Assembly (NCBI GenBank): GCA_030693235.1
Contig: JAUYBE010000006.1
Span: 139,601-203,600, forward strand
Direction of reading: 5' to 3'
DNA length: 64,000 nt
Source: a bacterium
Lineage (GTDB): Bacteria > Patescibacteriota > Minisyncoccia > UBA6257 > UBA9933
Part shown: piece by piece, positions 2,156-57,264 of the stretch
Numbering within the stretch: position 1 is the first letter of the stretch
Layout of the letters: the number at the start of each line of letters is the position of its first letter
Position numbers and translations under genes: made by a program
Notes under the pieces: model-generated
What the model was told of the DNA's origin: nothing
Databases searched by the model: none
What the model saw: the letters and a program-made list of their open reading frames with translations, nothing else

Positions 2156-2241
2156 CGCCTGTCCCGAATTTGCCAAAGATTGACAACCATTTTCTTATTT
2201 TGTTATTATACATTGGACTGTCGTTCAGTTATTTTTTATTT

Positions 2242-2653
2242 TATGCCCACAATCAGCCAATTAATTAAAAAGAGAAGAAAAAATACCAAGAAAAAAACCA
2301 AAGCGCCGGCAATGGGTTTGTATTTTAACACGCAGGACAATAAGCCGGTTTATTCAAATTCGCCTTTCAAGCGCGGCGTTTGTTTAAAAGTTTTTACGAC
2401 TACGCCGAAAAAGCCGAATTCGGCCATGCGAAAAGTCGCCCGGGTGCGTTTAACCAACGGCATGGAAGTGACGGCTTATATTCCCGGCGTTGGACACAGT
2501 CTTCAAGAGCATTCGATAGTTATGATAAGGGGCGGCAGAGTCAAGGATTTGCCGGGCGTTAAATATCACATTGTCCGGGGAGTGTTGGACGCCGGCGGCG
2601 TTGAAGGCAGAAAACAGGAAAGAAGCAAGTATGGGGCGAAGAAACCGAAGTAG
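2242..2653 (+). CDS. rpsL: 30S ribosomal protein S12
   Basis: [19 protein letters not shown]...[14 protein letters not shown] core. Start placed at [10 protein letters not shown]. Confidence 0.9.
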
Positions 2654-2732
2654 CTTTTAGGTTTTAGTTTTTAGGTTTTAGATAATAAATTTCTAACACC
2701 TAACACCTAACACTTAACACCTAATACCTAAC
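2654..2732. repeat. family A themed palindrome (TTTTAGG)n-loop-(CCTAACA)n abutting the rpsG start
   Basis: Direct reading. The 3' arm ends 1 nt before the TTG start at 2733. Confidence 0.8.
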
Positions 2733-3200
2733 TTGAGAAGAAAACGTAAATATAAAAAAATTCATCAACCCGACGTTCAATATAATAATATCGCTGTTTC
2801 GCGGTTTATTAACTATTTAATGAAAGGCGGTAAAAAATCCGTTGCCGAGAAATTATTTTACAAATCTTTTGCTAATATTCAAAAGGAAACTAAAACAGAG
2901 CCGCTTTCGATTTTCGAAAAAGCCCTTGAAAACGCCACGCCGCTTCTGGAAGTCGTGTCCAAGCGCGTTGGCGGCGCCAATTATCAGGTGCCTAGAGAAG
3001 TCAGGCCGGAAAGGAAATTTTTATTGGCTTGCCGTTGGATTATTGAAGCAGCTGCGTCAAAAAAAGGTAAACCAATGGCTCAAAAATTGGCCGAAGAATT
3101 AATCGCGGCGTCAAAGAACGAAGGCGCGGCTATAAAGAAAAAACAGAATGTTCATAGAATGGCGGAAGCAAACAGAGCCTTCGCGCATTTCGCCAGATAG
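2733..3200 (+). CDS. rpsG: 30S ribosomal protein S7 (TTG start)
   Basis: RRKRKYKKI...NYLMKGGKKSVAEKLFY matches the uS7 N-terminus. The first codon is ttg. Confidence 0.9.
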   Translation: MRRKRKYKKIHQPDVQYNNIAVSRFINYLMKGGKKSVAEKLFYKSFANIQKETKTEPLSIFEKALENATPLLEVVSKRVGGANYQVPREVRPERKFLLACRWIIEAAASKKGKPMAQKLAEELIAASKNEGAAIKKKQNVHRMAEANRAFAHFAR

Positions 3201-3202
3201 AT

Positions 3203-3275
3203 TAGTTTTTAGGTTTTAGTTTTTAGGTTTTAGATAAAAAAATCTAACACCTAACACCTAACACCTAACACCTAA
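3203..3275. repeat. family A themed palindrome abutting the fusA start
   Basis: Same motifs and orientation as 2654-2732. Ends 2 nt before the TTG start at 3278. Confidence 0.8.
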
Positions 3276-3277
3276 AA

Positions 3278-5428
3278 TTGCGTCAATATCCCTTAGAAAA
3301 ATATAGAAATATAGGAATAATAGCCCATATCGATGCCGGCAAAACAACCGTTTCCGAACGGGTTCTTTTTTATACCGGTGTTTCTCATAAAATCGGCGAG
3401 GTCCATGAGGGAGAGGCGATTATGGATTGGATGGAACAGGAAAAAGAAAGGGGAATCACCATCACCGCGGCGGCCACTACTTGTTTTTGGATGCCGACGT
3501 ATCGTCGGCCGCAGAATTACGCGGACTTGACGCGGACCGACGCGGAAGAAATCAAAAAAAAATATGAACATAGGATTAACATTATTGATACGCCCGGCCA
3601 TATCGATTTCACGGTTGAAGTTCAACGTTCATTAAGGGTGCTTGACGCTGCGGTTGTTATTTTTGACGGCGTGGCCGGCGTTGAACCGCAGTCCGAAACC
3701 GTCTGGCATCAGGCGGATAAATTTAAAGTGCCGCGAATTTGTTTTATCAATAAATTGGACCGGATAGGCGCTAATTTTGAGAAATCGTTTCTTTCAATCC
3801 AGGAAAGATTGAATCCCAACGCGATTGTCGTTCAAATACCGATAGGTCTGGAAGCAAATTTTGAAGGCATTATTGATTTGCTGGCAATGAAGGCTTTTTA
3901 TTTTGAAGGCGATCGCGGCGAAAAAATTATTGAAAAAGAAATACCAAACGAGTTAAAAGTTCAAAGTGAAAAGTTAAAAGTTCTATTAATTGAAAAAATC
4001 TCTGAAACCGACGAAAAATTGACGCAAAAATATCTTGAAGGAAAAGAAATCAGTTTTGAAGAACTTAAACAGGCGATGAGAAAAGCCACAATCAACAGTC
4101 AATTGGTTCCGGTTTTTTGCGGTTCGGCGTTGAAAAACAAAGGCGTTCAGTTGATGCTCGACGCCGTTTTGGATTATTTGCCTTCGCCGCTTGATTTGAA
4201 AGAAATCAAGCCGATTGAAGGAGCGCATCCGAAAACCGAAGAAAAAATTAATCGTCAACCGGCGGATAATGAACCGCTGGCGGCTTTGGCTTTTAAAATC
4301 GCCACAGACCCTTATGTCGGCAGCCTCACCTTCGTCAGAGTTTACAGCGGCGTTCTTAAGAGGGGATCTTACGTTCTGAATTCATCAAAGGGCAATCAGG
4401 AAAGAATCGGCCGGATTGTCCGAATGCACGCCAATCAACGGGAAGAAGTCGAGGAAATGTATGCCGGCGATTTGGGCGCGGCCGTAGGATTGAAAGGAAC
4501 TTCCACGGGCGATACTTTGTGCGATCCGGGCAATCCGATTGTTTTGGAAAAGATTATTTTCCCGGAGCCGGTGATTTCCGTCAGAATCGAGCCGAAAACG
4601 AAAGCCGATCAGGAAAAATTGGGTTTTGCCCTTCATAGATTATCAGAAGAAGATCCGACTTTCCGCATTAGCGGCGACCCCGATACCGGCGAGACGATTA
4701 TTTCCGGTATGGGCGAACTTCATTTGGAAATTATTATTGACCGGGCGAAAAGGGAATTTGGAGTTGAAGCGGATATCGGCAGGCCTCAGGTCGCTTATAA
4801 AGAAACTGTCAACGCCGAGTCCGAAGCTGAGGGTAGATATATCAAGCAATCCGGCGGTCGAGGTCAGTACGGCCATGTTTGGTTAAACGTTAAGTCATTG
4901 GAAAGGGGGAAAGGATTCGTCTTTGTCAATAAAATAAAAGGCGGTATTATTCCCCAGGAATTTATTCCGGCGGTTGAAAAAGGCGTTAAAGAAGCGTTAA
5001 GTAAGGGAATTTTAGCCGGTTATCCGATTGTTGATATTGAGGTGAAACTTTATGACGGTTCTTTTCATGAAGTTGACTCGTCGGAAATCGCTTTTAAAAT
5101 CGCCGGCGCGATGGCTTTTTTGGAAGCGGCAAAAAGAGCCAAGCCGGTGATTTTGGAACCGGTGATGAAAATTCAGGTAATCGCGCCTTTGGAATTTTTA
5201 GGCGACGTTACCGGCGATCTCAATGCCAAGCGCGGAAGGATTGAAAATATTTCAGATAGGGTTAATATTAAAGTGATAGATGTTAAAGTGTCCCTGGCTG
5301 AAATGTTCGGTTACGCGACCAAGTTGCGGTCAATGACTCAGGGCAGAGGAACCTTTACGATGGAATTCGACCATTATGAAGAAGTGCCATCAAATATTGC
5401 CCAGTTGATTATTGAAGGGAAGAAATGA
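3278..5428 (+). CDS. fusA: elongation factor G (TTG start)
   Basis: [17 protein letters not shown]-domain; 716 aa translational GTPase. Confidence 0.95.
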
Positions 5429-5436
5429 TAATAATT

Positions 5437-5508
5437 ATGTGTCATTGCGAACGAAGTGAAGCAATCTATATGTGAGATTGCCGCGGGCTTCGCCCTCGCA
5501 ATGACAGT
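5437..5508. repeat. family C palindrome GTCATTGCGA...TCGCAATGAC
   Basis: Arms gtcattgcgaacgaagtgaagcaatct / agattgccgcgggcttcgccctcgcaatgac. Lies between fusA and rplM. Confidence 0.7.
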
Positions 5509-5514
5509 TATTCA

Positions 5515-5856
5515 ATGCAATACACCATCGATGCCACAAATAAAAAATTGGGAAGATTGGCTTCTGAAATAGCCGTAATTTTGCAAGGCAAAAAAAGTCC
5601 GAAATACGAACCGCGACTGGAAGGCGAGGATAAAGTGTTTATCAAAAATATCAATAATCTGGAAGTTAGCGGCAAGAAAATGAAACAAAAAATTTATTAT
5701 CGCCATACGACTCAGGTCGGCCACTTAAAAGAACAAACTTTGGAGATGCTTTGGCAAAAAAAGGGTCCGGCGGAAGTTTTGCGCCGAGCTGTGCTTCATA
5801 TGTTGCCGAAGAATAGATTAAAAATTAAGAGGATAAAAAGGCTAATAATAGAATGA
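5515..5856 (+). CDS. rplM: 50S ribosomal protein L13
   Basis: IDATNKKLGRLASEIA...YYRHT...LP pattern of uL13. Confidence 0.8.
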   Translation: MQYTIDATNKKLGRLASEIAVILQGKKSPKYEPRLEGEDKVFIKNINNLEVSGKKMKQKIYYRHTTQVGHLKEQTLEMLWQKKGPAEVLRRAVLHMLPKNRLKIKRIKRLIIE

Positions 5857-6284
5857 CTAAACCAATTGAAAAAATCGAAAAAATGTCTGAAAAAAAAGAG
5901 CGTTATTTTGAAGCGGTTGGCAGGCGAAAAACAGCCGTGGCGCGAGTAAGGCTTTTTACAAAAAAAATCGGCATTGAGATTAACGATAAAAATCTCAGCG
6001 ATTATTTTCCGATTCTGCGTCTTCGAAAAACAGTTGAGGCTCCTTTGGAAAAAATGAAAATTGCCGATAAATTGGGAGCGGTTGTTAAAGTTAAGGGCGG
6101 CGGGATTATGGCCCAAGCCGAGGCTATTCAGCTTGGCATTGCTCGGGCTTTGATTAAATTCAATGCTGAATTTAGAAAACGGCTTCGTCGCGTTGATATG
6201 CTCACTCGCGATTCGCGAATGGTTGAGCGAAAAAAATATGGTTTGAAAAAAGCAAGGCGGGCGCCGCAGTGGAAGAAGAGATAA
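5853..6284 (+). CDS. rpsI: 30S ribosomal protein S9
   Basis: GRRKTAVARV... and a C-terminal KKYGLKKARRAPQWKKR. Confidence 0.9.
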   Translation: MTKPIEKIEKMSEKKERYFEAVGRRKTAVARVRLFTKKIGIEINDKNLSDYFPILRLRKTVEAPLEKMKIADKLGAVVKVKGGGIMAQAEAIQLGIARALIKFNAEFRKRLRRVDMLTRDSRMVERKKYGLKKARRAPQWKKR

Positions 6285-6295
6285 CAATAAAATTA

Positions 6296-6360
6296 ACCTA
6301 ATTATTCTAATTTCTAATTTCTAAATTAGGTCAATTAGAAATTAGGTCAATTAGAAATTT
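6296..6360. repeat. themed palindrome (TCTAATT)n / (AATTAGAAATTAGG)n
   Basis: Direct reading of inverted tandem motifs downstream of rpsI. Confidence 0.6.
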
Positions 6361-6367
6361 AAAGGCG

Positions 6368-6910
6368 ATGCTTTCTCTAAAATTTATAATAGGTCTTTTA
6401 ATCCTAATTCTTTCCTTCCATATATTAACTACTATCAATCATTGGTATTGGACTTATCCCTGGCTTGATATACCAATGCATTTTCTTGGCGGTTTTTGGG
6501 TGGCGATGGTGTTCTTGTATTTTTGGCGCTCTGCCCATATTTCTATCGGCGCCGGGCGTTTGTCGACTCCAGCGGTCGACACCGCCCTACGCTCTCGGTT
6601 TGCCGACTCCAACTTTGTCGGAGACCAAGCTCGGCGAACCTCCGAGAGTTGCCGTACGAAACACGGGAAGATCGCTAATTCGTTTATTTTGTTGATTTTA
6701 GTGTTGAGTTTTGTGGCTCTAATCGGCGTTTTCTGGGAATTTTATGAATTTCTTTACGATGTTTTAATTTCCAGCCGCGGTTATTCGGGGTTTGCGCGAT
6801 TGGGCGCCGCCGACATGATAGGAGATTTATTTTTTGACCTTTTAGGCGGCTTGACGTTTTTGATAATTTGCCGCATAATGAATTTAAATAATAATAAAAC
6901 AATACAATAA
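6368..6910 (+). CDS. hypothetical membrane protein with an internal GC-rich segment
   Basis: Multiple hydrophobic helices. No family recognised. Confidence 0.4.
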   Translation: MLSLKFIIGLLILILSFHILTTINHWYWTYPWLDIPMHFLGGFWVAMVFLYFWRSAHISIGAGRLSTPAVDTALRSRFADSNFVGDQARRTSESCRTKHGKIANSFILLILVLSFVALIGVFWEFYEFLYDVLISSRGYSGFARLGAADMIGDLFFDLLGGLTFLIICRIMNLNNNKTIQ

Positions 6911-6915
6911 ACAAT

Positions 6916-8154
6916 ATGAAACAATCTAAACTTTTTATCAAAACCAAACGCGAGGCGCCGAAAGACGAAGAGGCGATTAACGCTAGATTACTGATACGGG
7001 CGGGTTTTATCGATAAATTAATGGCGGGAGTTTACACTTTTTTGCCGTTAGGATTAAGAACGCTTAAAAAAATTGAAAATATTATTCGCGAAGAAATGAA
7101 CAAAGCCGGCGGACAGGAAGTTTTAATGCCCGGTCTTCAGCCGAAAGAAAATTGGGTAAAAACCGGAAGATGGGATTCTATGGATGATCTTTATAAAATT
7201 AAGGACGCAAGCGGAAGAGAGTTTGCTTTGGGTCCGACGCACGAAGAAGTGGTTTTCCCCTTACTTAAAAATGTCATTTTTTCTTATAAAGACCTGCCTC
7301 TTTATGTTTATCAAATTCAAAATAAATTCAGGATGGAATTAAGGGCAAAATCCGGCCTTTTGCGCGGAAGAGAATTTTTAATGAAAGATTTTTATTCTTT
7401 CCATACCGACGAAAAAGACAGAGATGATTATTATGATTTTATGGCGAAAGTTTATAAAAATATTTTTGACATACTAGGTATAGGAGATAAAACACACTAT
7501 ACGCTTGCCTCCGGCGGAACATTTTCCAAATATTCCCATGAATTTCAAACTGTCACCGATGCGGGCGAAGATACAATACATATTTGCTGTAAATGCGAAA
7601 TGGCCATAAATGACGATATTATAAAAGAAAATAAATCCTGTCCAAAATGCGGCGAATCAAGTTTTAGCCCAAAAAAGGCCATAGAAGTTGGGAATATTTT
7701 TAAATTAAAAGAAAAATTCGCCGATGATTTCGGATTGAAATTTAAAGATAAAGATGGAATGGAGAAAACGGTTATAACCGGCTGTTATGGAATCGGTCTT
7801 GGTCGGTTGATGGGAGCCGTTGTAGAGTCAAGCTATGATGAAAAAGGAATGATTTGGCCGGAATCAATCGCGCCGTTTCAAGTTCATTTAATCAGACTAA
7901 CGACAAACGACAAACGACAAACGATTTTTGCGGATAAAATTTATAATGCTTTACAAAAATCCGGCGTTGAAGTATTATACGACGACCGCGAAGATATTGG
8001 CGCCGGCGAGAAATTCGCCGATGCGGATTTAATCGGAATTCCATGGCGGGCCGTTGTCAGTGAAAGAACAGGAAATAAGATTGAGATTAAAAAAAGAAAT
8101 GAGAAGAAAACAAGACTGGTGAGCGAGAAAGAATTTATTAAGACACTAAAATGA
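6916..8154 (+). CDS. proS: prolyl-tRNA synthetase (short form without editing domain; Cys4 insertion)
   Basis: REAPKDEEAINARLLIRAGFI...GVYTFLPLGLR class II motifs. CCKCE...CPKCG insertion. Confidence 0.85.
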   Translation: MKQSKLFIKTKREAPKDEEAINARLLIRAGFIDKLMAGVYTFLPLGLRTLKKIENIIREEMNKAGGQEVLMPGLQPKENWVKTGRWDSMDDLYKIKDASGREFALGPTHEEVVFPLLKNVIFSYKDLPLYVYQIQNKFRMELRAKSGLLRGREFLMKDFYSFHTDEKDRDDYYDFMAKVYKNIFDILGIGDKTHYTLASGGTFSKYSHEFQTVTDAGEDTIHICCKCEMAINDDIIKENKSCPKCGESSFSPKKAIEVGNIFKLKEKFADDFGLKFKDKDGMEKTVITGCYGIGLGRLMGAVVESSYDEKGMIWPESIAPFQVHLIRLTTNDKRQTIFADKIYNALQKSGVEVLYDDREDIGAGEKFADADLIGIPWRAVVSERTGNKIEIKKRNEKKTRLVSEKEFIKTLK

Positions 8155-9191
8155 TTTTCGATTATTTCAAAAAAGACATCGGCATAGATTTGGGAACCGC
8201 CAATTCTTTGGTTTATGTCAAAGATCGGGGAATTGTTGTCAGCGAGCCTTCGGTGGTGGCGGTGAACAATAAAACCGGCCAGGTATTGGCGATAGGCGAA
8301 GAAGCCAAGAAAATGATCGGCAGGACGCCGGCGCATATTTCGGTAATTCGGCCGTTGGTAAACGGAGTTGTTTCCGATTTTGAAATTACCCAGGAAATTC
8401 TCCGTCATTTTTTGAAAAAAATAAATAATAATCGGATTTTTAATTATTGTCGGGTAGTTATCGGCGTTCCCACCAATCTTACCGAAGTGGAAAGAAAATC
8501 CGTGGAAGACGCGGCAATTTCCGCCGGCGCCGCCAAGGTTTATCTTATTGAAGAGCCGATTGCGGCGATTTTGGGCGCCCGTTTGCCGATTAATGAGCCG
8601 ATTTCCAGTATGATTGTGGATATCGGAGGCGGCACTGTTGATATCGCCGTTATTTCCATGGGCGGAATCGTGACGGCCAGAAGTTTGAAAATCGCCGGCG
8701 ATAAATTAAACGACGATATCATTAAATTCGTTCGCGATGAATTTAAATTGATAATCGGCGAGCCGACGGCCGAAGAACTGAAAATCACCATTGGTTCGGC
8801 GGTTCCCATCGAAGAAAAAATGGAATTGGCGGTTCGCGGTCGGGATATAGCTACCGGATTGCCCCGAGAAATTATCGTTAAGGGAAATCATGTTCGAACG
8901 GCGATAAATCGTTCTTTGGGGTCAATGATAAGCGCGATAAAAGAAATAATTGAAAAAACCCCGCCGGAATTGGTTGGTGATATTTTAAAAACAGGCATTT
9001 ATCTTTGCGGCGGCGGAAGTTTGCTGAAAGGAATCGATCAGTTGATTGAAAAAGAAATTTCAGTTAAAGCTTCGATGATTGAGGACCCTTTGACTTGCGT
9101 TGCCAGGGGAACGGGGATTGCGTCGGAAAATATTCAATATTATTCAAAATATTTTGTTGACAATTTAAAACCGATGGAGATAAATATATAA
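8151..9191 (+). CDS. mreB: rod shape-determining protein MreB
   Basis: IGIDLGTANSLVYV... actin-like ATPase motifs; 346 aa. Confidence 0.85.
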   Translation: MIFDYFKKDIGIDLGTANSLVYVKDRGIVVSEPSVVAVNNKTGQVLAIGEEAKKMIGRTPAHISVIRPLVNGVVSDFEITQEILRHFLKKINNNRIFNYCRVVIGVPTNLTEVERKSVEDAAISAGAAKVYLIEEPIAAILGARLPINEPISSMIVDIGGGTVDIAVISMGGIVTARSLKIAGDKLNDDIIKFVRDEFKLIIGEPTAEELKITIGSAVPIEEKMELAVRGRDIATGLPREIIVKGNHVRTAINRSLGSMISAIKEIIEKTPPELVGDILKTGIYLCGGGSLLKGIDQLIEKEISVKASMIEDPLTCVARGTGIASENIQYYSKYFVDNLKPMEINI

Positions 9192-9192
9192 C

Positions 9193-9387
9193 ATGGGTGG
9201 AGTACCGGTAAAACATCATACTAAATCAAAAGTTGGAAGGCGGCGGTCTCATCTTGCTTTGAAGCCGGCCCGGATTTTTGTTTGTCAGAATTGCAGTCAT
9301 CCGATTTTACCGCATCGACTTTGCGGCAATTGCGGAAATTATAAAGGGAAAATAATAAAAAAACCGAAATTGAAAATTAAGAAATAA
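9193..9387 (+). CDS. rpmF: 50S ribosomal protein L32
   Basis: VPVKHHTKSKVGRRRSHLALK... C..C...C..C bL32 pattern. Confidence 0.8.
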   Translation: MGGVPVKHHTKSKVGRRRSHLALKPARIFVCQNCSHPILPHRLCGNCGNYKGKIIKKPKLKIKK

Positions 9388-9394
9388 CATAGCC

Positions 9395-9474
9395 TGTCAT
9401 TTAGCTCGTTCCATAGTTTTACAATAAATTTCGCGGCAATTGCGGAACATATGAGGGGAAATAAAAAATAATGG
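9395..9474. repeat. intergenic segmental duplication: a copy of the nusB 5' end followed by a copy of the rpmF 3' end
   Basis: catttagctcgttccatagttttacaat occurs at 9398 and 9480. gcggcaattgcggaa...gggaaa(a)taa..aaa occurs at 9322 and 9433. Confidence 0.75.
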
Positions 9475-9887
9475 CAACCAGACATTTAGCTCGTTCCATA
9501 GTTTTACAATCGTTGTATGAATGGGATTTTTATAATCGCCAGGTTGATTTAACAAAAATAATTGAACGCAATTTAAAAGAATTCGGTCAGGGGATAGACG
9601 AACCGGAATTTGTTTGGCGGATTGTCAAAGGGGTAATTGAAAATTTTGAAAATTTAAATAAAATTATTGAGAAAGCGGCGCCGGAATGGCCGATTAACCA
9701 AATTTCCATCACCGACCGAAATATTTTACGGATTGGATTATATGAGTTATTATTTGCCGATCATAATGAAGTGCCGCCTAAGGTGGCGATTAACGAAGCG
9801 ATTGAATTGGCCAAAAACTATGGCGGTCCCAATTCAGGAAGATTTATTAATGGAGTTTTAGGAACAGTGTACAAAGAGCTTTCTTAA
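9471..9887 (+). CDS. nusB: transcription antitermination factor NusB
   Basis: 138 aa, [14 protein letters not shown]... NusB-like helical pattern. Confidence 0.7.
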
Positions 9888-10047
9888 AATTTTCAAGCCG
9901 ATAGGCGCTGAAAATTTTACTAGAAAGCCTTTACCCCTCACCTTCTCTATTGATAATTGTTTAATAATTATATAAGGTAGACGCAAGTCGGCTTCGCCTT
10001 ATAGACGTGGTAGGTGTAAATTTATTGGTGGAAAAGGTGGGGGGTGC

Positions 10048-10103
10048 TCAATGTGATAGTAAAATTTACTTCGCATTGGGCTCGTAAATTTTAATCACAT
10101 TGG
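10048..10103 (+). promoter_or_regulatory. hairpin in the rpsD leader ending 1 nt before the start codon
   Basis: Arms tcaatgtgatagtaaaatttac / gtaaattttaatcacattgg. Confidence 0.4.
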
Positions 10104-10104
10104 C

Positions 10105-10719
10105 ATGAAAAGATCTAAAGAAAAACTGGAACGTTCGTTGGGGATGAAGCTTTTTTTGAAAGCGGATCGTTGTAATTCGCCAAAATGCGCGATGGTCAGG
10201 CATCCTCAGCGTCCGGGTATGCATGGCGGAAAACGCCGGAGGGCGAAAACAGAATATGGCGATCAATTATTGGAAAAACAAAGAATAAGAGCAAGCTACG
10301 GGCTTCGGGAAAAACAACTGGCCCGCATTGTCGAAGAGTCTATGAAAAAAACGGGTTCAGTGGGCGAAGCGATTATCAGCTCTTTGGAGCGTCAGTTTTT
10401 CAATGTGATTTTTCGTCTGGGAATAGCGCCTTCACGGGTTGTTTCAAGACAATTTATCAGCCATGGTCATTTTTTGGTTAACGGTAAAAAAGTTACCATT
10501 CCTTCTTATTCGACTAAAATAGGAGACATAGTTTCCATTAAACCTTCTTCTCGCGAGCTCTTGATTTTTAAAGATTTGCCTGATAAGCTTAAAAAATACG
10601 AAACGCTGGAATGGCTTGATTTGGATAAAGAAAAACTGGAAGGCAAAGTAAAGTCCTTGCCGCGCGATATTGAAATTCCGTTTGATATAAATTTAGTGGT
10701 GGATTATTATTCTAAATGA
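10105..10719 (+). CDS. rpsD: 30S ribosomal protein S4
   Basis: SYGLREKQ...GHFLVNGKKVTIPSY... uS4 pattern. Confidence 0.9.
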   Translation: MKRSKEKLERSLGMKLFLKADRCNSPKCAMVRHPQRPGMHGGKRRRAKTEYGDQLLEKQRIRASYGLREKQLARIVEESMKKTGSVGEAIISSLERQFFNVIFRLGIAPSRVVSRQFISHGHFLVNGKKVTIPSYSTKIGDIVSIKPSSRELLIFKDLPDKLKKYETLEWLDLDKEKLEGKVKSLPRDIEIPFDINLVVDYYSK

Positions 10720-10790
10720 GTTTTTAGGTTTTAGTTTTTAGGTTTTAGATAAAAAAATCTAACACCTAACACCTAACACCTAACACCTAA
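10720..10790. repeat. family A themed palindrome abutting the rpoA start
   Basis: Same motif and orientation. Ends 4 nt before the GTG start at 10795. Confidence 0.8.
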
Positions 10791-10794
10791 AAAA

Positions 10795-11544
10795 GTGGAA
10801 TACACAAAACTTAGCGATGCCGTAAAAATTAAAAAAGTTTCTGAAACCGAACGCGAGGGCGTTTTTGAAATTGAAGGGCTTTATGCCGGTTATGGATTGA
10901 CTTTAGGCAATTCTTTGCGCCGCGTCCTTCTTTCTTCATTGCCGGGAGCCGCCATTACCCAAATAAAAATTAAAGGCGTGGAACACGAATTTTCAACAAT
11001 TCCCGGAGTATTGGAAGACGTTCTCGAGATAACCTCAAATCTTAAAAAAGTGCGCTTTCATTTTTACGCCGCCGAGCCCCAGATTTTAACTTTGAAAATC
11101 AAAGGAGAGAAAAAAGTCCTGGCCAAAGACATTAAAACAAACGCTCAAGTGGAAGTGGTTAATCCGGACGCTCATATTGCCACTCTTACAAGCAAGAATG
11201 CCGAAATTGATATGGAGATTATTGTGGAAAAGGGGCTTGGTTATGTTCCTGTGGAAGCCAGAAAAATCGAGAAATTGCCCGTTAAAACAATCGCTCTTGA
11301 CGCTATTTTTACGCCAGTGGTTAAAGTTAATTTTAACGTTGAAAATATGCGGGTTGGCGAACGCACCGACTACAACAGATTAAGACTTTTTATTGAAACC
11401 GACGGCAGTATTACGCCTTCAAGCGTTCTTCATAAATCTTGCAGTATTTTAAAAGACCACTTTGAAAAAATTTCGGCGCTCGAAATTAAAGGAATAGAAT
11501 CGAAAGCGGAACCGGCGGAGAAAAAAACGAAAAAGAAAAAGTAA
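10795..11544 (+). CDS. rpoA: DNA-directed RNA polymerase alpha subunit, N-terminal domain only (GTG start)
   Basis: alpha-NTD motifs (GYGLTLGNSLRRVLLSSLPGAAIT). Ends after 249 aa with a lysine tail. No alpha-CTD coding space remains before rplQ. Confidence 0.85.
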   Translation: MEYTKLSDAVKIKKVSETEREGVFEIEGLYAGYGLTLGNSLRRVLLSSLPGAAITQIKIKGVEHEFSTIPGVLEDVLEITSNLKKVRFHFYAAEPQILTLKIKGEKKVLAKDIKTNAQVEVVNPDAHIATLTSKNAEIDMEIIVEKGLGYVPVEARKIEKLPVKTIALDAIFTPVVKVNFNVENMRVGERTDYNRLRLFIETDGSITPSSVLHKSCSILKDHFEKISALEIKGIESKAEPAEKKTKKKK

Positions 11545-11642
11545 TTAGACGCGATGCGAAACAACAAATACATTCGAATGCCGCGAAAAATTAATTCGTA
11601 GCATTCGCATCTATTCGTAGTTTAGCATCGGGTAGCGAAGCG

Positions 11643-11993
11643 ATGAGACATTTAGTAAAAGGCCGAAAATTTCACAGAGGGAAAGGGCAACGAAACGCTC
11701 TTTTTAAAAGTTTAATCAATAATTTTATTTTAAAAGAAAAGATAGAAACAACCGAAGCCAAAGCTAAAGAAATTCGGCCTAAAATGGAAAAATTAATAAC
11801 TGCCGGAAAAAAGCGGAATTTAAGCGTTTTAAGGATATTGACAGAACAACTTCCCAAGAAAGCCGCTTTGAAAATCTATTACGAATTAAGTCCCCGCTAT
11901 CAAGAACGAAAAGGCGGTTATACCAGAATAACCAAAAGCGCTAAAACCAGAAAGAACGATGGAGCGAAGATGGCGGTGATAGAGTTTGTGTGA
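11643..11993 (+). CDS. rplQ: 50S ribosomal protein L17
   Basis: MRHLVKGRKFHRGKGQRNALFKSL... bL17 N-terminus. Confidence 0.85.
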   Translation: MRHLVKGRKFHRGKGQRNALFKSLINNFILKEKIETTEAKAKEIRPKMEKLITAGKKRNLSVLRILTEQLPKKAALKIYYELSPRYQERKGGYTRITKSAKTRKNDGAKMAVIEFV

Positions 11994-11997
11994 GGGG

Positions 11998-12040
11998 TTG
12001 ACAATTTTGTTGTTGACAATTAATATTAGATAATATAAAT
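11998..12040 (+). promoter_or_regulatory. candidate sigma70-type promoter(s) upstream of tuf
   Basis: TTGACA at 11998 with a 17-nt spacer and TAATAT. Second TTGACA at 12013 with TATAAA. Confidence 0.4.
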
Positions 12041-12063
12041 TTAAAAAGTCGCAATAATTAAAT

Positions 12064-12153
12064 TCATACGAAAATACGAAAACATACGAAATTACGAAAA
12101 CTAACTTTCGTACATTCGTACAATTTCGCACTTTCGTAAGAAAATTTCGTATG
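12064..12153. repeat. family B themed palindrome (TACGAAA)n / (TTTCGTA)n whose 3' arm includes the tuf ATG
   Basis: catacgaaaatacgaaaacatacgaaattacgaaaa ... tttcgtacattcgtacaatttcgcactttcgtaagaaaatttcgtATG. Confidence 0.8.
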
Positions 12154-13350
12154 GCAGAAAAAGCAAAATTTGAAAGAGTTAAGCCGCACATTAATGTTGG
12201 AACTATCGGTCATGTCGATCACGGCAAAACAACTTTAACCGCGGCCATCACTCATGTTCTTAAATTAAAAGGTCTTATCGCGAAAGAGGAGTCGGTTGAT
12301 CAAATCGATAACGCGCCGGAAGAGAAAGCCCGGGGCATTACTATCGCTTTGCATCACTCGGAATATGAATCCGAGAAACGGCATTACGCTCATATCGACG
12401 CTCCGGGACACGCCGATTACATTAAAAATATGATTACCGGCGCGGCTCAAATGGATGGCGCGGTTTTGGTAGTGGCGGCGACTGACGGTCCTATGCCTCA
12501 AACGCGCGAACACATTCTTTTGGCCCGTCAGGTTGGCGTGCCGTCTCTCGTTGTTTTTTTAAACAAAGTTGATATGGTTGATGACCCGGAATTGGTTAGC
12601 TTGGTGGAAGCCGAGGTAAGGGAACTTTTGAAGAAATATAATTTCCCGGGAGATGAAACTCCGATTATAAAAGGATCGGCTCTTAAGGCGCTGGAGGCGC
12701 AATCAGTCGATGACGAAGCGATTAAACCGATTTTGGAATTAATAAAAGCATTGGACGAATACATTCCCGAACCGACGCGAGAAATTGATAAGCCGTTTTT
12801 GATGCCGGTTGAAGATATTTTCTCGATTGAGGGTCGGGGAACCGTGGTAACCGGTCGGATTGAAAGGGGAATGGTTAAAATTAACGAGGAAATAGAAATT
12901 ATCGGTTTGAAACCCACTCAAAAAACGGTTGTAACGGGCATTGAAATGTTTAATAAGCTTCTTGACGAAGGCCGGGCCGGCGACAATGTCGGCATTTTAC
13001 TCCGCGGTCTTAAAAAGGAAGATGTTGAACGGGGTCAGGTTTTGGCGAAGCCGGGGAGCGTGACTCCTCACACAGAATTCGAAGCGGAAGTTTACGTACT
13101 TTCAAAAGAGGAAGGCGGCAGGCATACGCCATTCTTCAAAGGATATAAACCGCAACTTTATATTCGAACCACCGACGTTACCGGAGAAGTGATTTTACCG
13201 GAAGGCATTGAAATGGTAATGCCGGGCGATACAATTAATCTAAAAGTTAATTTAATCGCGCCGGTGGCTTTGGAAGAAAAACAGCGTTTTGCCATTCGTG
13301 AAGGAGGCAAGACTGTCGGCGCCGGAGCGGTAACGAAGATATTGAAGTAG
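12151..13350 (+). CDS. tuf: elongation factor Tu
   Basis: [20 protein letters not shown]-domain; 399 aa. Confidence 0.95.
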
Positions 13351-13359
13351 TCCCTTGTC

Positions 13360-13698
13360 ATGACAAAGAAAAAAGAAAAGGAAATTGAACATCAAACAAA
13401 GTTGCGTTTAAGAATAAAATCTTACGATCATAAATTGATTGATAGTTCTTCGCGGCAGATTATTGATATTGCGGTAAGACAGAACGCCGAAGTGATCGGA
13501 CCGGTTCTGTTACCGACGGATTTCAAGCGTTATACGGTTAATCGCTCAACTTTCGTCCATAAAGATTCAAGGGAACAGTTTGAATTGCGGGTTCATAAAC
13601 GCTTGATTGATATTTTAAATCCAAACCCAAAAATTATTGAAGCTTTGTCCAATCTCAATCTGCCGGCAGGCATTGACATTGAAATTAAAATGATATAA
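13360..13698 (+). CDS. rpsJ: 30S ribosomal protein S10
   Basis: [16 protein letters not shown]...IGPVLLPT uS10 pattern. Confidence 0.85.
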
Positions 13699-13790
13699 AA
13701 TTTTGCTTGGTGAGTGATGAGTTTTCCTTATCTTCAACTCTCCGATCTTGGTCGGAGAAGCGAAGAAATCTAAGGAAAGCCCTTCTAATT

Positions 13791-13822
13791 TTCCCCTCCG
13801 ACCTTGCGTCGGAGGGGTTTTT
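13791..13822 (+). terminator. intrinsic terminator (CCCCTCCGAC...GTCGGAGGGG + T-run) downstream of rpsJ
   Basis: 10-bp GC-rich stem followed by TTTTTTT. Confidence 0.6.
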
Positions 13823-13929
13823 TGATTTTAGCAACTCATACGCGATCGCGCAAAAAGTTGATAATACAATCTATTGGCATATACACTTGTAAATTTTCGC
13901 GCATTCTTTCATAATTAAATTGGCCGTTG

Positions 13930-14110
13930 ATTGGAGGCGTTTCAGCGGGCGGTAAAGAAGCGCACTCACTAAATAAAAAAAATTGGAGGTCACCATTTGC
14001 CGCTCGCTGAAACGCCTGCCCCGATTGACATAAATTTTATTATTTGTTATTCTTAACTCACTAAAAAGATTTAGCTTAAAAAATGAGGGGCTAAATCCCT
14101 CATTTTTATA
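13930..14110 (+). ncRNA. candidate structured RNA / leader between rpsJ and rplC, closed by a terminator-like hairpin
   Basis: Long-range inverted repeat ggaggcgtttcagcgggcgg / ccgctcgctgaaacgcctgcc. Terminator-like hairpin atgaggg..ccctcat plus T-rich tail at 14082-14108. Confidence 0.2.
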
Positions 14111-14129
14111 TTTTTATTAAAATAAAATT

Positions 14130-14759
14130 ATGGCATTCATTTTAGGCAAAAAATTAAAAATGTCGCAGATTTGGAAAGATGATGAAGTGATTCCGGTAAC
14201 GTTGATTCAAGCGGGACCGATAACGATAACGCAAATCAGGACAAAGGAAAAAGACGGTTATGAAGCGGTTCAGGTTGGATTCGGAACGAAAAAATTAAAG
14301 AACATCAAAAAACCGCAGCAAGGCCAATTTAAAAATTTGGGCAATTTTCAGCATGTCCGCGAATTTCGGATTAAACAATTACCAATTACCAGTTACCAGT
14401 TACCAAAAGTAGGCGATGTTTTGGATGTCAGTCAATTTGAAGACGGTGGCAAAGTAAAAATCAGCGGCTTAAATAAAGGTAAGGGATTTCAAGGAGTCGT
14501 TAAGCGCCACGGTTTTCATGGCGGACCGAAAACTCACGGCCAAAAAAATCGCCATCGAGCGCCCGGTTCAATTGGCGCCACGGCGCCGCAACGGGTAATG
14601 CCCGGGAAAAAAATGGCCGGTCGAATGGGACAGGAACGAATAACGGTTAAAAATTTAAAAATTGCCGGCGTGGATAAAGAAAACAATATTTTGATGATTA
14701 AAGGCGCGGTGCCGGGAATGAGGGGAACACTGTTGGAAATTAATCAGTATGACAGTTAA
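14130..14759 (+). CDS. rplC: 50S ribosomal protein L3
   Basis: GKGFQGVVKRHGFHGGPKTHGQKNRHRAPGSIG uL3 signature. Confidence 0.9.
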   Translation: MAFILGKKLKMSQIWKDDEVIPVTLIQAGPITITQIRTKEKDGYEAVQVGFGTKKLKNIKKPQQGQFKNLGNFQHVREFRIKQLPITSYQLPKVGDVLDVSQFEDGGKVKISGLNKGKGFQGVVKRHGFHGGPKTHGQKNRHRAPGSIGATAPQRVMPGKKMAGRMGQERITVKNLKIAGVDKENNILMIKGAVPGMRGTLLEINQYDS

Positions 14760-19050: not shown

Positions 19051-19118
19051 TTTTTAGGTTTTAGTTTTTAGGTTTTAGAGAATTTCTAACACCTAACACC
19101 TAACACCTAACACCTAAA
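19051..19118. repeat. family A themed palindrome abutting the rplN start
   Basis: Same motif and orientation. Ends 4 nt before the ATG at 19123. Confidence 0.8.
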
Positions 19119-21089: not shown

Positions 21090-21180
21090 GCATACGAAAA
21101 TACGAAAACATACGAAAAATACGAAAACTAACTTTCGTACATTCGTACAATTTCGTACTTTCGTAAGAAAACTTCGTATG
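21090..21180. repeat. family B themed palindrome whose 3' arm includes the rplF ATG
   Basis: gcatacgaaaatacgaaaacatacgaaaaatacgaaaa...tttcgtacattcgtacaatttcgtactttcgtaagaaaacttcgtATG. Confidence 0.8.
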
Positions 21181-51519: not shown

Positions 51520-51590
51520 TTAGGTGTTAGGTGTTTAGGTGTTAGGTGTTAGTTAATTTCTAAAACCTAAAAGCTAAAACCTAAAAGCTT
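51520..51590. repeat. family A themed palindrome in reverse orientation, abutting the dnaX start on the minus strand
   Basis: gtttaggtgttaggtgtttaggtgttaggtgttag...ctaaaacctaaaagctaaaacctaaaagc. Orientation relative to the downstream gene is as for the other copies. Confidence 0.8.
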
Positions 51591-53377: not shown

Positions 53378-53447
53378 GTTTTTAGGTTTTAGTTTTTAGG
53401 TTTTAGTGAATTATCTAACACCTAACACCTAATACCTAACACCTAAA
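53378..53447. repeat. family A themed palindrome abutting the ATG at 53451
   Basis: Same motif and orientation. Ends 3 nt before the ATG. Confidence 0.8.
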
Positions 53448-55668: not shown

Positions 55669-55764
55669 TCATACGAAAGTGCGAAAATATACGAAATTAC
55701 GAAACATAAAAACAACTTCGTACATTCGTAAAATTTCGTATTTTCGTAAGAGATTTTTGTAATG
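55669..55764. repeat. family B themed palindrome ending in the ATG at 55762
   Basis: tcatacgaaagtgcgaaaatatacgaaattacgaaa...cttcgtacattcgtaaaatttcgtattttcgtaagagatttttgtaATG. Confidence 0.75.
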
Positions 55765-57202: not shown

Positions 57203-57264
57203 GTTTTAGGTTGTAGGTTTTAGGTTTTAGAACCTAACACCTAACACCTAACACCTAACACCTA
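57203..57264. repeat. family A themed palindrome ending 0 nt before the ftsW ATG
   Basis: ggttttaggttgtaggttttaggttttagaacctaacacctaacacctaacacctaacacctaATG. Confidence 0.8.

What the first reader, a model, noticed from the sequence alone, without database searches (positions are those of the whole stretch)
13700..14129. 430-nt structured spacer inside the S10 cluster, between rpsJ and rplC
rpsJ is followed by a strong intrinsic terminator (13791-13822). Next comes a region with a long-range 17-bp inverted repeat (13935-13951 / 14001-14017) enclosing about 49 nt. A second terminator-like hairpin (14082-14108) lies 20 nt before rplC. In most bacteria rplC follows rpsJ closely within one transcript. 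Here there may be an independent small RNA, or a regulatory leader for the rplC-led operon, perhaps an L4- or L3-responsive attenuator. The listed ORF 13707..13892 runs through the terminator and is unlikely to be real.
Basis: partly seen in the sequence, partly recalled or inferred. Interest (0 to 1): 0.5.

Follow-up and report, generated by a model that had tools for sequence, protein, structure and literature searches.

The report
Paired small RNAs before rplC operon
The 430-base gap between two ribosomal-protein genes of this uncultured Wolfebacteria-like bacterium holds two small RNA genes built to base-pair with each other, then the promoter and a terminator-type control hairpin for the downstream ribosomal-protein operon; none of these RNAs matches a described family.

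Summary
All three hairpins are at the stated places, and the spacer folds far better than shuffles (z = -8.8). Comparison with about 90 related CPR loci splits it into four conserved modules.

- **A (about 13709-13823):** a roughly 115-nt small RNA with its own TTGACA-17-TAAAAT promoter overlapping the end of rpsJ. It has covarying helices and the "rpsJ terminator".
- **D (about 13922-14026):** a hairpin RNA with its own promoter, a wildly covarying stem and an invariant 35-nt core (GCACUCAC...GGAGGUCACC).
- **P:** the near-invariant rplC promoter (14025-14053).
- **E (14068-14107):** a terminator-like hairpin with a covarying stem and a conserved loop, GGCUAAAUC. That loop is complementary to GAUUUAGCU just upstream.

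A and D always occur together. A's 5' end and its pre-terminator tail are complementary to the two halves of D's core. Compensatory changes arose in at least five lineages.

Rfam, ARAGORN and Pfam give nothing. I read A as a trans-acting RNA that clamps D, which usually runs without a terminator into the rplC leader. I read E as an r-protein-type attenuator. The anatomy is well supported; the function is inferred.

The parts
13673..13701 (+). Promoter of small RNA A. The -35 TTGACA lies inside the last rpsJ codons. The -10 TAAAAT overlaps the rpsJ stop codon.
   Evidence: The scan scores it 11 of 12. All 24 distinct A copies have TTGACA-17-TATAAT-like boxes 6-7 nt (10 in L092) before (A/G)GUGAGUG, including loci with no rpsJ upstream.
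13709..13823 (+). Small RNA A (about 115 nt), made of:
- 5' seed GGUGAGUG, 13709-13716
- P1, 13722-13729 paired with 13772-13779
- P2 hairpin, 13731-13766
- tail seed CUUCUAAUUUU, 13782-13792
- intrinsic terminator 13793-13817 plus U6
   Evidence: Model R2 finds 37 copies, all on the + strand, one per locus. Of 17 pairs, 9 show changes on both sides; 96.7% of cells pair against 84% in shuffles and 42-62% in slid controls. RNAalifold predicts the same fold on its own.
13887..13915 (+). Promoter of small RNA D (TTGTAA-17-CATAAT)
   Evidence: The scan scores it 9 of 12. All 26 distinct D copies have a sigma-70-like site scoring 7-10 of 12. In the 11 compact forms the -10 box ends 19-21 nt before the core.
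13926..14026 (+). Small RNA / leader hairpin D, made of:
- main stem, 13935-13956 paired with 13996-14017
- invariant core 13957-13995, containing GCACUCAC (13962-13969), an A-rich linker, and GGAGGUCACC (13985-13994)
   Evidence: Model R1 finds 40 copies, all on the + strand, 122-1367 nt upstream of rplC. All 9 stem pairs show changes on both sides; 97.7% pair against 57.5% in shuffles. The wobble pairs checked by eye in six stems are G.U on the + strand (no systematic count). The core is unique in the window.
14025..14053 (+). rplC-operon promoter P (TTGACA-17-TG-n-TATTCT, extended -10)
   Evidence: The scan scores it 10 of 12, with the TG motif. It is nearly invariant in relatives, including those that lack A and D.
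14068..14107 (+). Leader E. GAUUUAGCU (14068-14076) is complementary to the hairpin-top sequence GGCUAAAUC (14089-14097: the 7-nt loop plus the closing G-C pair) of a terminator-like hairpin. The core stem is 14083-14089 paired with 14097-14103, followed by a U-run.
   Evidence: There are 42 distinct copies with two unrelated stem sequences and the same loop. In the stem, 5 of 8 pairs show changes on both sides and 93.4% pair. In the upstream-to-loop pairing, 96.9% of cells can pair and all changes are wobble-compatible, but none is on both sides. E is unique in the window.

Best explanation
The spacer is a compact regulatory locus with four parts.

**1. Small RNA A.** A is a free-standing, roughly 115-nt small RNA. 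It is transcribed from a promoter embedded in the end of rpsJ and ends at the strong terminator. That terminator also closes the tuf-rpsJ unit.

**2. Hairpin RNA D.** D starts from its own promoter. In most species, including this one, no terminator separates D from the rplC promoter. D is therefore probably the 5'-terminal element of a long, distal-promoter transcript of the rplC operon. In some species it may also be a short RNA.

**3. A pairs with D through two helices.**
- A's 5' end (A/G)GUGAGUG(C) pairs with D's GCACUCAC(U).
- A's tail CCUUCC-N-U pairs with D's A-N'-GGAGG.
- Together these open D's weak inner helix and mask its invariant Shine-Dalgarno-like GGAGGU.
- The topology fits a bimolecular four-way junction: D stem, helix 1, A's P1, helix 2.
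- I infer that this links the output of the tuf-rpsJ unit to the stability or read-through of rplC-operon transcripts, now that the S10 operon is split.

**4. Leader E.** Downstream of the conserved proximal promoter, E is a transcription attenuator. The terminator hairpin competes with pairing between GAUUUAGCY and the loop. An operon-encoded ribosomal protein (L4 or L3, by analogy) probably binds the conserved loop to favour termination.

**Shown versus inferred.**
- Shown: conservation, covariation, co-occurrence, and co-evolution of A with D.
- Inferred: transcript ends, the direction of regulation, and the protein effector.
For: **Conservation tracks rplC, not rpsJ.**
- Pieces of the spacer are conserved upstream of rplC in relatives where the rpsJ-rplC gap varies from 68 to 3024 nt.
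- They are also conserved where rpsJ is absent from 4 kb of upstream sequence.

**A.**
- 37 model hits.
- Covariation supports the fold.
- Each copy has its own consensus promoter.
- In L082 a minus-strand gene lies between A and D, so A acts in trans.

**D.**
- 40 hits, all on the + strand.
- All 9 stem pairs covary.
- Promoters are conserved.
- Only 8 of 26 copies have a U-tract after the hairpin.
- The rplC -35 box lies within 26 nt in 17 of 26 copies.

**A with D.**
- They co-occur in 37 of 40 D loci. The other three are one contig end and two divergent A copies.
- Neither is found in the remaining 52 loci searched.
- Helix 1 scores -12.6 to -17.5 kcal/mol in 25 of 25 cognate pairs.
- Helix 2 shows matched changes: CU/AG, UU/AA, UUU/AAA and U/A.
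- Cognate pairs bind better than permuted ones: -10.08 against -9.14 +/- 0.21, beaten in 0 of 20,000 permutations.
- An rplC tree places these switches in at least five lineages.
- L092 also carries a compensated change in helix 1.

**E.**

**GGAGG is otherwise unused here.** None of 61 genes has a strong Shine-Dalgarno sequence.
Against: - There are no expression data. Transcription starts, 3' ends and read-through from D are inferred from consensus motifs only.
- Helix 1 is almost invariant, so it rests on complementarity plus one compensated case.
- L123 has a mismatch in helix 2. L115 keeps the pairing only through wobble pairs.
- The permutation test ignores phylogeny.
- D's core halves recur in a nested outer stem in L092 where A could not bind well. 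The core may therefore also be a protein-binding or tertiary motif.
- The E upstream-to-loop pairing has no change on both sides, and no effector has been identified.
- All relatives are metagenome bins. I could not check whether species lacking A and D at this locus carry them elsewhere.
Confidence: 0.5

Rival explanations
1. A and D are the two chains of one obligate bimolecular structured RNA. This would be a two-piece housekeeping RNA or ribonucleoprotein scaffold folded around a four-way junction. Its function would have nothing to do with regulating the neighbouring ribosomal-protein genes, and its position would be mere synteny.
For: - A and D co-occur strictly and keep a fixed order.
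- Two co-evolving intermolecular helices give a consistent four-way-junction topology.
- The junction nucleotides are highly conserved: nnGA and CACCA in D, GAG and RCC in A.
- In some relatives D grows into a roughly 300-nt RNA with a pseudoknotted insert, as housekeeping RNAs do.
Against: - No known two-piece RNA fits. Rfam (SRP, RNase P, 6S, tmRNA) gives nothing even at E up to 10, and ARAGORN finds no tmRNA.
- About half of the closely related species lack both RNAs at this locus.
- D abuts the rplC promoter without a terminator in most species.
Confidence: 0.2
2. D is a free-standing decoy (sponge) RNA that titrates A. A's real targets would be mRNAs elsewhere in the genome, reached through its 5' seed or its C/U-rich tail.
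For: - A has the anatomy of a classic trans-acting small RNA: its own promoter, accessible seeds and a terminator.
- D has its own promoter. In 8 of 26 species a U-tract follows the hairpin.
- In the window the 10-mer ACUCACUAAA also occurs at the predicted 5' end of the rplC leader (repeat D7).
Against: - No other bipartite target exists in the 64-kb window.
- The rplC-leader match is absent even from the closest relative.
- D's fixed position and orientation next to the rplC promoter are not needed for a sponge.
Confidence: 0.2
3. A is not a separate gene. It would be a cis-acting 3'-UTR or riboswitch-like element with a terminator that gates read-through from rpsJ into rplC.
For: - A sits directly after rpsJ in the window and in many relatives.
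- It ends in a terminator.
- In the window, P2's 3' strand GGUCGGAG could pair with the terminator's 5' arm (repeat D6).
Against: - That alternative pairing is not conserved, for example in L081 and L006.
- A keeps a perfect TTGACA-17-TATAAT promoter where rpsJ is absent (L057, L008, L128, L021) or 1-2.6 kb away (L006, L096).
- In L082 an opposite-strand gene separates A from D and rplC.
Confidence: 0.05
4. The spacer is ordinary: a terminator, a promoter and chance hairpins in AT-rich DNA, or small protein-coding ORFs.
For: - The number of terminator-like sites is within the range of shuffles.
- Three ORFs of 41-61 aa overlap the region.
Against: - The fold has a z-score of -8.8.
- Three independent covariation tests are positive.
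- Invariant cores persist across rplC identities of 63-88%.
- Indels in the A-run and hairpins break the reading frames.
- The ORFs have no Pfam hits.
Confidence: 0.03

Closest known systems
Escherichia coli S10-operon leader (L4-interacting RNA, attenuation plus translational control)
   Same: Both are leaders of the rplC-rplD-... gene block that contain an intrinsic-terminator hairpin just before the first gene. In E. coli, L4 (with NusA) stimulates termination there (PMC3616713).
   Different: - The E. coli leader precedes rpsJ, has five hairpins and is confined to Gammaproteobacteria.
- Here the leader follows rpsJ and precedes rplC.
- It is a single hairpin with an upstream complement.
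- It shares no detectable sequence or structure with any Rfam leader.
- The effector is unknown.
Bacillus subtilis infC-rpmI-rplT leader (L20-dependent transcription attenuation)
   Same: The logic I propose for E is the same: a ribosomal protein shifts a terminator/antiterminator choice in the leader of its own operon (PMC1865079, abstract seen).
   Different: The protein, the RNA and the size (about 200 nt) all differ. E is 40 nt, and its antiterminator is supported only by conserved complementarity.
Small RNAs made from promoters inside the 3' end of a coding gene (DapZ/MicL type; own knowledge)
   Same: A's -35 box lies in the last rpsJ codons, and A shares its terminator with the upstream mRNA.
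   Different: Those small RNAs act through Hfq on mRNA ribosome-binding sites. A's only identified partner is another non-coding hairpin, and the genome barely uses Shine-Dalgarno sequences.
T-box leader-tRNA recognition (own knowledge)
   Same: In both, a structured trans RNA is read at two separate sites by a leader RNA upstream of an operon that carries a terminator.
   Different: There is no tRNA, no specifier or T-box sequence, and no Rfam hit. The terminator (E) lies behind a second promoter, and no D-E alternative pairing was found. This is an analogy of logic only.
Two-site kissing small-RNA/target pairs and sponge RNAs (e.g. OxyS-fhlA; own knowledge)
   Same: Two short, separate intermolecular helices form between a structured small RNA and a hairpin loop of its partner.
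   Different: Here both helices fall in one 35-nt core and flank one helix of the small RNA, which gives a four-way junction. The partner is a syntenic non-coding element.
STAB-SD 5' mRNA stabilisers of Bacillus (own knowledge)
   Same: D has a Shine-Dalgarno-like GGAGG near a transcript's 5' end that is not followed by a start codon.
   Different: Binding of 30S subunits and any effect on stability are untested. In D the element is partly paired in cis and has a dedicated RNA partner.

Membership tests
E. coli-type S10 leader (L4-interacting RNA) | Lies upstream of rpsJ, the first gene of the S10 operon | tested here: not met
   E lies after rpsJ, 22 nt before rplC. rpsJ is transcribed with tuf and is followed by a terminator.
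E. coli-type S10 leader (L4-interacting RNA) | Multi-hairpin architecture (HA-HE) with HD and HE required | tested here: not met
   The window has one hairpin plus a 9-nt upstream complement. No ribosomal-leader model reaches its threshold; the best are L10_leader at 20.6 bits against 44 and S15 at 18.8 against 39.5.
E. coli-type S10 leader (L4-interacting RNA) | L4 binding and NusA-dependent termination | not testable with these tools
   Needs purified proteins and in vitro transcription.
Terminator/antiterminator attenuator (generic) | Promoter, then a GC-rich hairpin plus U-tract, before the first gene | tested here: met
   Promoter 14025-14053 and hairpin 14079-14107 with a U-run. The arrangement is conserved in 42 distinct copies, and 5 of 8 stem pairs covary.
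Terminator/antiterminator attenuator (generic) | A conserved alternative pairing that excludes the terminator | tested here: inconclusive
   GAUUUAGCY against GGCUAARUC: 96.9% of cells can pair and every one-sided change is wobble-compatible, but no pair changes on both sides. Mutual exclusion is argued from geometry only.
Trans-acting base-pairing small RNA (module A) | Own promoter and intrinsic terminator, independent of neighbouring genes | tested here: met
   Consensus promoters are present in all copies, including loci without rpsJ. A terminator is present in all. An opposite-strand gene lies between A and D in L082.
Trans-acting base-pairing small RNA (module A) | Conserved accessible seed with a complementary partner that co-evolves | tested here: met
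   Helix 1 forms in 25 of 25 pairs. Helix 2 compensations arose in at least five lineages, and the permutation test gives 0 of 20,000. L092 carries a helix-1 compensation.
Trans-acting base-pairing small RNA (module A) | Expressed as a discrete transcript | not testable with these tools
   No transcriptome data are available.
Known housekeeping RNAs (SRP, RNase P, 6S, tmRNA, tRNA) | Match to the family covariance model or ARAGORN | tested here: not met
   Nothing is found in the spacer at E up to 10, in the window at gathering thresholds, or in 20 related loci, L008 and L021. ARAGORN finds three tRNAs elsewhere and no tmRNA.
T-box riboswitch | Specifier loop, T-box sequence and a tRNA ligand | tested here: not met
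   No Rfam T-box hit. The partner is not a tRNA.
STAB-SD 5' stabiliser | Shine-Dalgarno-like element near the 5' end of the downstream gene's transcript, without a start codon | tested here: inconclusive
   GGAGGU is invariant and no start codon is conserved after it. Co-transcription with rplC is inferred only from the missing terminators in 18 of 26 copies.

The most novel reading that the evidence does not exclude
A and D form a dedicated bimolecular four-way-junction switch. Through it, the leader of the rplC operon reads a trans-encoded RNA made from the end of rpsJ, which re-couples the two halves of a split S10 operon.

The genome has essentially abandoned Shine-Dalgarno sequences. In that setting, D's invariant GGAGGU and A's CCUUCC tail would act as a Shine-Dalgarno / anti-Shine-Dalgarno mimic pair. 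The pair would compete with free 30S subunits, so that ribosomal-protein synthesis is tuned to ribosome availability by RNA alone.
Probability: 0.15. Interest if true: 0.85.

Novelty: new variant of a known kind. Interest (0 to 1): 0.62.

Why it matters
Almost nothing is known about RNA-based regulation in the Candidate Phyla Radiation, which makes up a large share of bacterial diversity and cannot be grown alone.

This locus yields three RNA families that are absent from Rfam. Each has clean comparative support.
- One is a candidate autoregulatory leader for the largest ribosomal-protein operon. Such leaders were previously defined only in Gammaproteobacteria.
- The other two are a rare case where co-evolution between two separate non-coding RNAs can be read directly from sequence.

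The pair gives concrete, testable partners: seed sequences and the compensatory mutants that nature has already made. It also offers a handle on how organisms with tiny genomes and no Shine-Dalgarno sequences coordinate ribosome synthesis.

Tried and rejected
**Database and coding checks that found nothing**
- Rfam at permissive thresholds on the spacer, on the window and on 22 related loci found nothing near a gathering score.
- The sub-threshold hits (miRNA, Termite-leu, L10 and S15 leaders) only reflect hairpins and U-runs.
- ARAGORN found no tmRNA or tRNA in the spacer.
- The three overlapping ORFs have no Pfam hits, and indels in relatives break their frames.
- The D core is absent from viral contigs.
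- Two literature searches on CPR or Patescibacteria RNAs returned nothing relevant.

**Resemblances to known RNAs, considered by eye and dropped**
- SRP domain IV for A's hairpin: the distance from tetraloop to internal loop varies from 3 to 8 bp and the tetraloop is not conserved.
- RNase P CR-I for AAGGAAAGCCC: this sequence is paired locally in P1.
- Hammerhead or C/D-box motifs: GUGAUGAG occurs only in the window's clade.
- K-turn in D's internal loop: the opposite strand lacks the GA.
- boxA for NusB/NusE: about 6 of 12 matches only.

**Pairing ideas that did not hold**
- A as a riboswitch with a conserved antiterminator: the pairing seen in the window is not conserved.
- D-loop to E complementarity: the two bases after CUAA vary.
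- Mimicry of 23S rRNA by the E loop: GCUAAAU occurs, from memory, at two places in E. coli 23S. A 7-mer is not significant, and no Wolfebacteria 23S sequence was available.

- RNAcofold cannot represent the loop-internal intermolecular helices, so its dimer energies are uninformative. I used RNAduplex instead.
- The MAFFT alignment of D arms misaligned the stems, so I used a model-based alignment. That alignment leans towards the structure.

Full report
**Observation**

The window encodes tuf (12151-13350), rpsJ (13360-13698), a 431-nt gap, then rplC (14130-14759), rplD and the rest of the S10 block.
- A 10-bp, 8-GC hairpin at 13793-13817 is followed by T6.
- An inverted repeat is longer than reported: 22-nt arms at 13935-13956 and 13996-14017, 91% complementary.
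- A hairpin at 14079-14107 has a T-run and ends 22 nt before the rplC ATG.

The spacer folds at -143.8 kcal/mol against -96.4 +/- 5.4 for shuffles, z = -8.8. Rfam finds nothing near a gathering score, and ARAGORN finds nothing here.

**Context**

The rplC protein retrieved 160 related loci from genome and metagenome collections. The nearest are Candidatus Wolfebacteria / Paceibacterota bins, at up to 88% identity.

In this clade the S10 operon is broken after rpsJ.
- The rpsJ-rplC distance ranges from 68 to 3024 nt.
- In several loci with a full 4 kb of upstream sequence there is no rpsJ or tuf at all.
- Yet pieces of the window's spacer are conserved upstream of rplC in many of these loci.

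The conserved material therefore is not simply an rpsJ tail. Reading the upstream regions side by side resolves four modules.

**Module A (about 13709-13823)**

- Every copy begins (A/G)GUGAGUG, 6-7 nt downstream of a TTGACA-17-TATAAT promoter.
- In the window the -35 box lies in the last rpsJ codons and the -10 box overlaps the stop codon; the scan scores it 11 of 12.
- Where rpsJ is absent or distant (L057, L008, L128, L021, L006, L096) the promoter is a perfect consensus.
- After the seed comes helix P1 (UUUUCCUU with AAGGAAA) and a variable hairpin P2 with a conserved AA/GC internal loop.
- Then comes a conserved tail (RCCCUUCCAGU, or CUUCUAAUUUU in the window) and an intrinsic terminator.
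- On a plain MAFFT alignment of 16 sequences, 9 of 17 pairs change on both sides. 96.7% of cells pair, against 84% in shuffles and 42-62% in slid controls.
- RNAalifold predicts the same fold and adds one more covarying pair.
- A covariance model finds 37 copies, one per locus, all on the rplC strand.

**Module D (about 13922-14026)**

- A 35-nt core, nnGA-GCACUCAC-UAAGyAAAAAAA-CUGGAGGU-CACCA, is almost invariant.
- The flanking stem has 9-22 uninterrupted pairs in 24 of 26 copies (4 by this measure in L115 and L123), with unrelated sequences in different species.
- All nine modelled pairs change on both sides. 97.7% pair, against 57.5% in shuffles.
- In the six stems I checked by eye the wobble pairs are G.U on the + strand, which fixes the strand; I did not count this systematically.
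- The A-run varies by single nucleotides, and one frame hits a stop in L006, so the core is not coding.
- Each copy has a sigma-70-like promoter. In the compact forms its -10 box ends 19-21 nt before the core, so the RNA would start at the foot of the stem.
- All 40 copies lie upstream of rplC on its strand.
- Only 8 of 26 have a U-tract after the hairpin.
- In 17 of 26 the rplC -35 box follows within 26 nt; in the window it follows within 7 nt.

D is therefore probably read through into the rplC leader.

**A and D belong together**

Co-occurrence is strict.
- Of the 40 loci with D, 37 have A by model.
- The other three are a contig end (L001, whose twin L082 has A) and two loci with a divergent A visible by eye.
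- The remaining 52 loci searched have neither.

A's 5' end is the exact complement of D's GCACUCACU. This helix 1 has 8-10 bp and scores -12.6 to -17.5 kcal/mol in all 25 cognate pairs.

A's tail is complementary to D's A-run plus GGAGG (helix 2). Here the two RNAs change together:

| D sequence | A sequence | Where |
|---|---|---|
| ...ACUGGAGG | CCUUCCAGU | most loci |
| ...AUUGGAGG | CCAAU | window clade, L019, L092 |
| ...AUUUGGAGG | CCAAAU | L128 |
| ...AUGGAGG | CCAU | L021 |

- An rplC tree puts these switches in at least five separate lineages.
- L115 and L003 keep the pairing through wobble pairs, which fits RNA pairing and not a shared DNA site. L123 has one mismatch.
- Cognate pairs bind better than permuted ones: -10.08 against -9.14 +/- 0.21 kcal/mol, beaten in 0 of 20,000 permutations. 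This test ignores phylogeny.
- L092 also carries a compensated change in helix 1: D has CACUCAC-A and A has U-GUGAGUG.
- In L082 an opposite-strand pseudouridine-synthase-like gene separates A from D, so the pairing must work in trans.
- The two helices flank A's P1 and D's stem. As an inference, this gives a bimolecular four-way junction.

**Modules P and E**

- The rplC promoter (14025-14053, extended -10) is nearly invariant, including in relatives without A and D.
- Downstream, 42 distinct leaders share GAUUUAGCY, a variable linker, and a terminator-like hairpin whose loop reads GGCUAA(A/G)UC.
- The stem comes in two unrelated versions: CAGCCGG/CUGGCUG, and AUGAGGG/CCCUCAU as in the window.
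- 5 of 8 stem pairs change on both sides.
- The upstream 9-mer can pair with the loop and the top of the stem in 96.9% of cells. All 26 one-sided changes are wobble-compatible, but none is on both sides.
- A 9-bp helix cannot form inside a 5-7-nt loop of a closed hairpin, so I treat the two structures as alternatives. That is attenuator logic.

**Mechanism**

| Status | Content |
|---|---|
| Shown | Four conserved modules; RNA structure in A, D and E; strict A-D co-occurrence; co-evolving A:D pairing |
| Inferred | A is a trans-acting small RNA whose synthesis is tied to the tuf-rpsJ unit. D is the 5' hairpin of a distal-promoter rplC transcript. A's binding opens D's weak inner helix and masks its GGAGGU, changing stability or read-through. 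E terminates when an operon-encoded protein binds its loop. |

The GGAGGU is notable because this genome almost never uses Shine-Dalgarno sequences. Only 3 of 61 genes have any 4-mer match, and none has a strong one.

I put about 0.8 on the anatomy, about 0.75 on direct A:D pairing, and about 0.25 on the specific regulatory outcome.

**Comparison with known systems**

- E works like the E. coli S10 leader and the B. subtilis L20 leader (PMC3616713; PMC1865079). It fails the membership tests for the former: position, architecture and model match.
- A resembles small RNAs made from promoters inside the 3' end of a gene.
- The two-site reading of a structured trans RNA by an operon leader recalls T-box logic.
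- D's element recalls STAB-SD stabilisers.

The last three are analogies from my own knowledge, not memberships. No housekeeping RNA model fits either RNA.

**Verdict**

The finding is real and richer than described: two new, mutually pairing small RNAs plus a new ribosomal-protein leader candidate in a CPR lineage.

It is limited by the absence of any expression or binding data, and by reliance on metagenome bins.

Noticed in passing
window 2698-2731, 3242-3275, 10757-10790, 19091-19117, 51520-51554 (-), 53413-53446, 57232-57265: Tandem arrays of 4-5 copies of the heptamer ACACCTA sit directly upstream of at least seven start codons (rpsG, fusA, rpoA and others), always in the sense orientation. 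ACCTAACACCTAA gives 27 hits against 0 expected. The genome is essentially free of Shine-Dalgarno sequences (3 of 61 genes), so these may be a different kind of translation-initiation signal.
   Followed up: partly
window 12064-12150; also 21159-21177 and 55742-55760: The tuf 5' leader is an inverted array of TACGAAA and TTTCGTA repeats ending in TTTCGTAAGAAAATTTCGT-ATG. The same 19-mer precedes two other genes. Similar TTCGTAA repeats lie upstream of rplC in some relatives (L005, L028, L032, L036, L057).
   Followed up: partly
window 10795-11544: rpoA is only 249 aa. It matches the N-terminal and insert domains only, with no alpha C-terminal domain, and ends in a lysine-rich tail.
   Followed up: partly
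window 2180-13698: The gene order is unusual: rpsL-rpsG-fusA ... nusB-rpsD-rpoA-rplQ-tuf-rpsJ. Alpha-operon genes and nusB therefore lie upstream of tuf, and rpsJ (NusE) is detached from rplC.
   Followed up: partly
L092 400-712; also after D in L008, L019, L021, L100, L102: In some relatives the D hairpin is nested inside an outer D-like stem, together with a conserved insert of about 170 nt. That insert has three interlocking 8-bp helices (a double pseudoknot) and no Rfam match.
   Followed up: partly
L021 1300-2235: About 900 nt of GC-rich sequence lies between D and the rplC promoter. It has its own consensus promoter and terminator, only overlapping junk ORFs, and no Rfam hit. It may be a large unknown RNA.
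   Followed up: partly
window 13964-13973 and 14056-14065: The 10-mer ACTCACTAAA occurs both in D's core and at the predicted 5' end of the rplC leader. A's 5' seed could therefore also reach the proximal transcript. This is absent from the closest relative L081.
   Followed up: yes
L006 1200-3500: Two ORFs (402 and 264 aa) are inserted between rpsJ and module A. The first carries a DPFMGSGTT methyltransferase-like motif. Close relatives L093-L095 lack the insertion.
   Followed up: no
L042-L080 (Clostridia / Oscillospiraceae loci): These unrelated Firmicutes loci consistently have an rpsJ-rplC spacer of 120-190 nt. I did not examine it for structure.
   Followed up: no
window 14383-14405: A short tandem repeat TTACCAG x3 lies inside rplC (…LPITSYQLP…), in a region that varies in length among relatives.
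   Followed up: no
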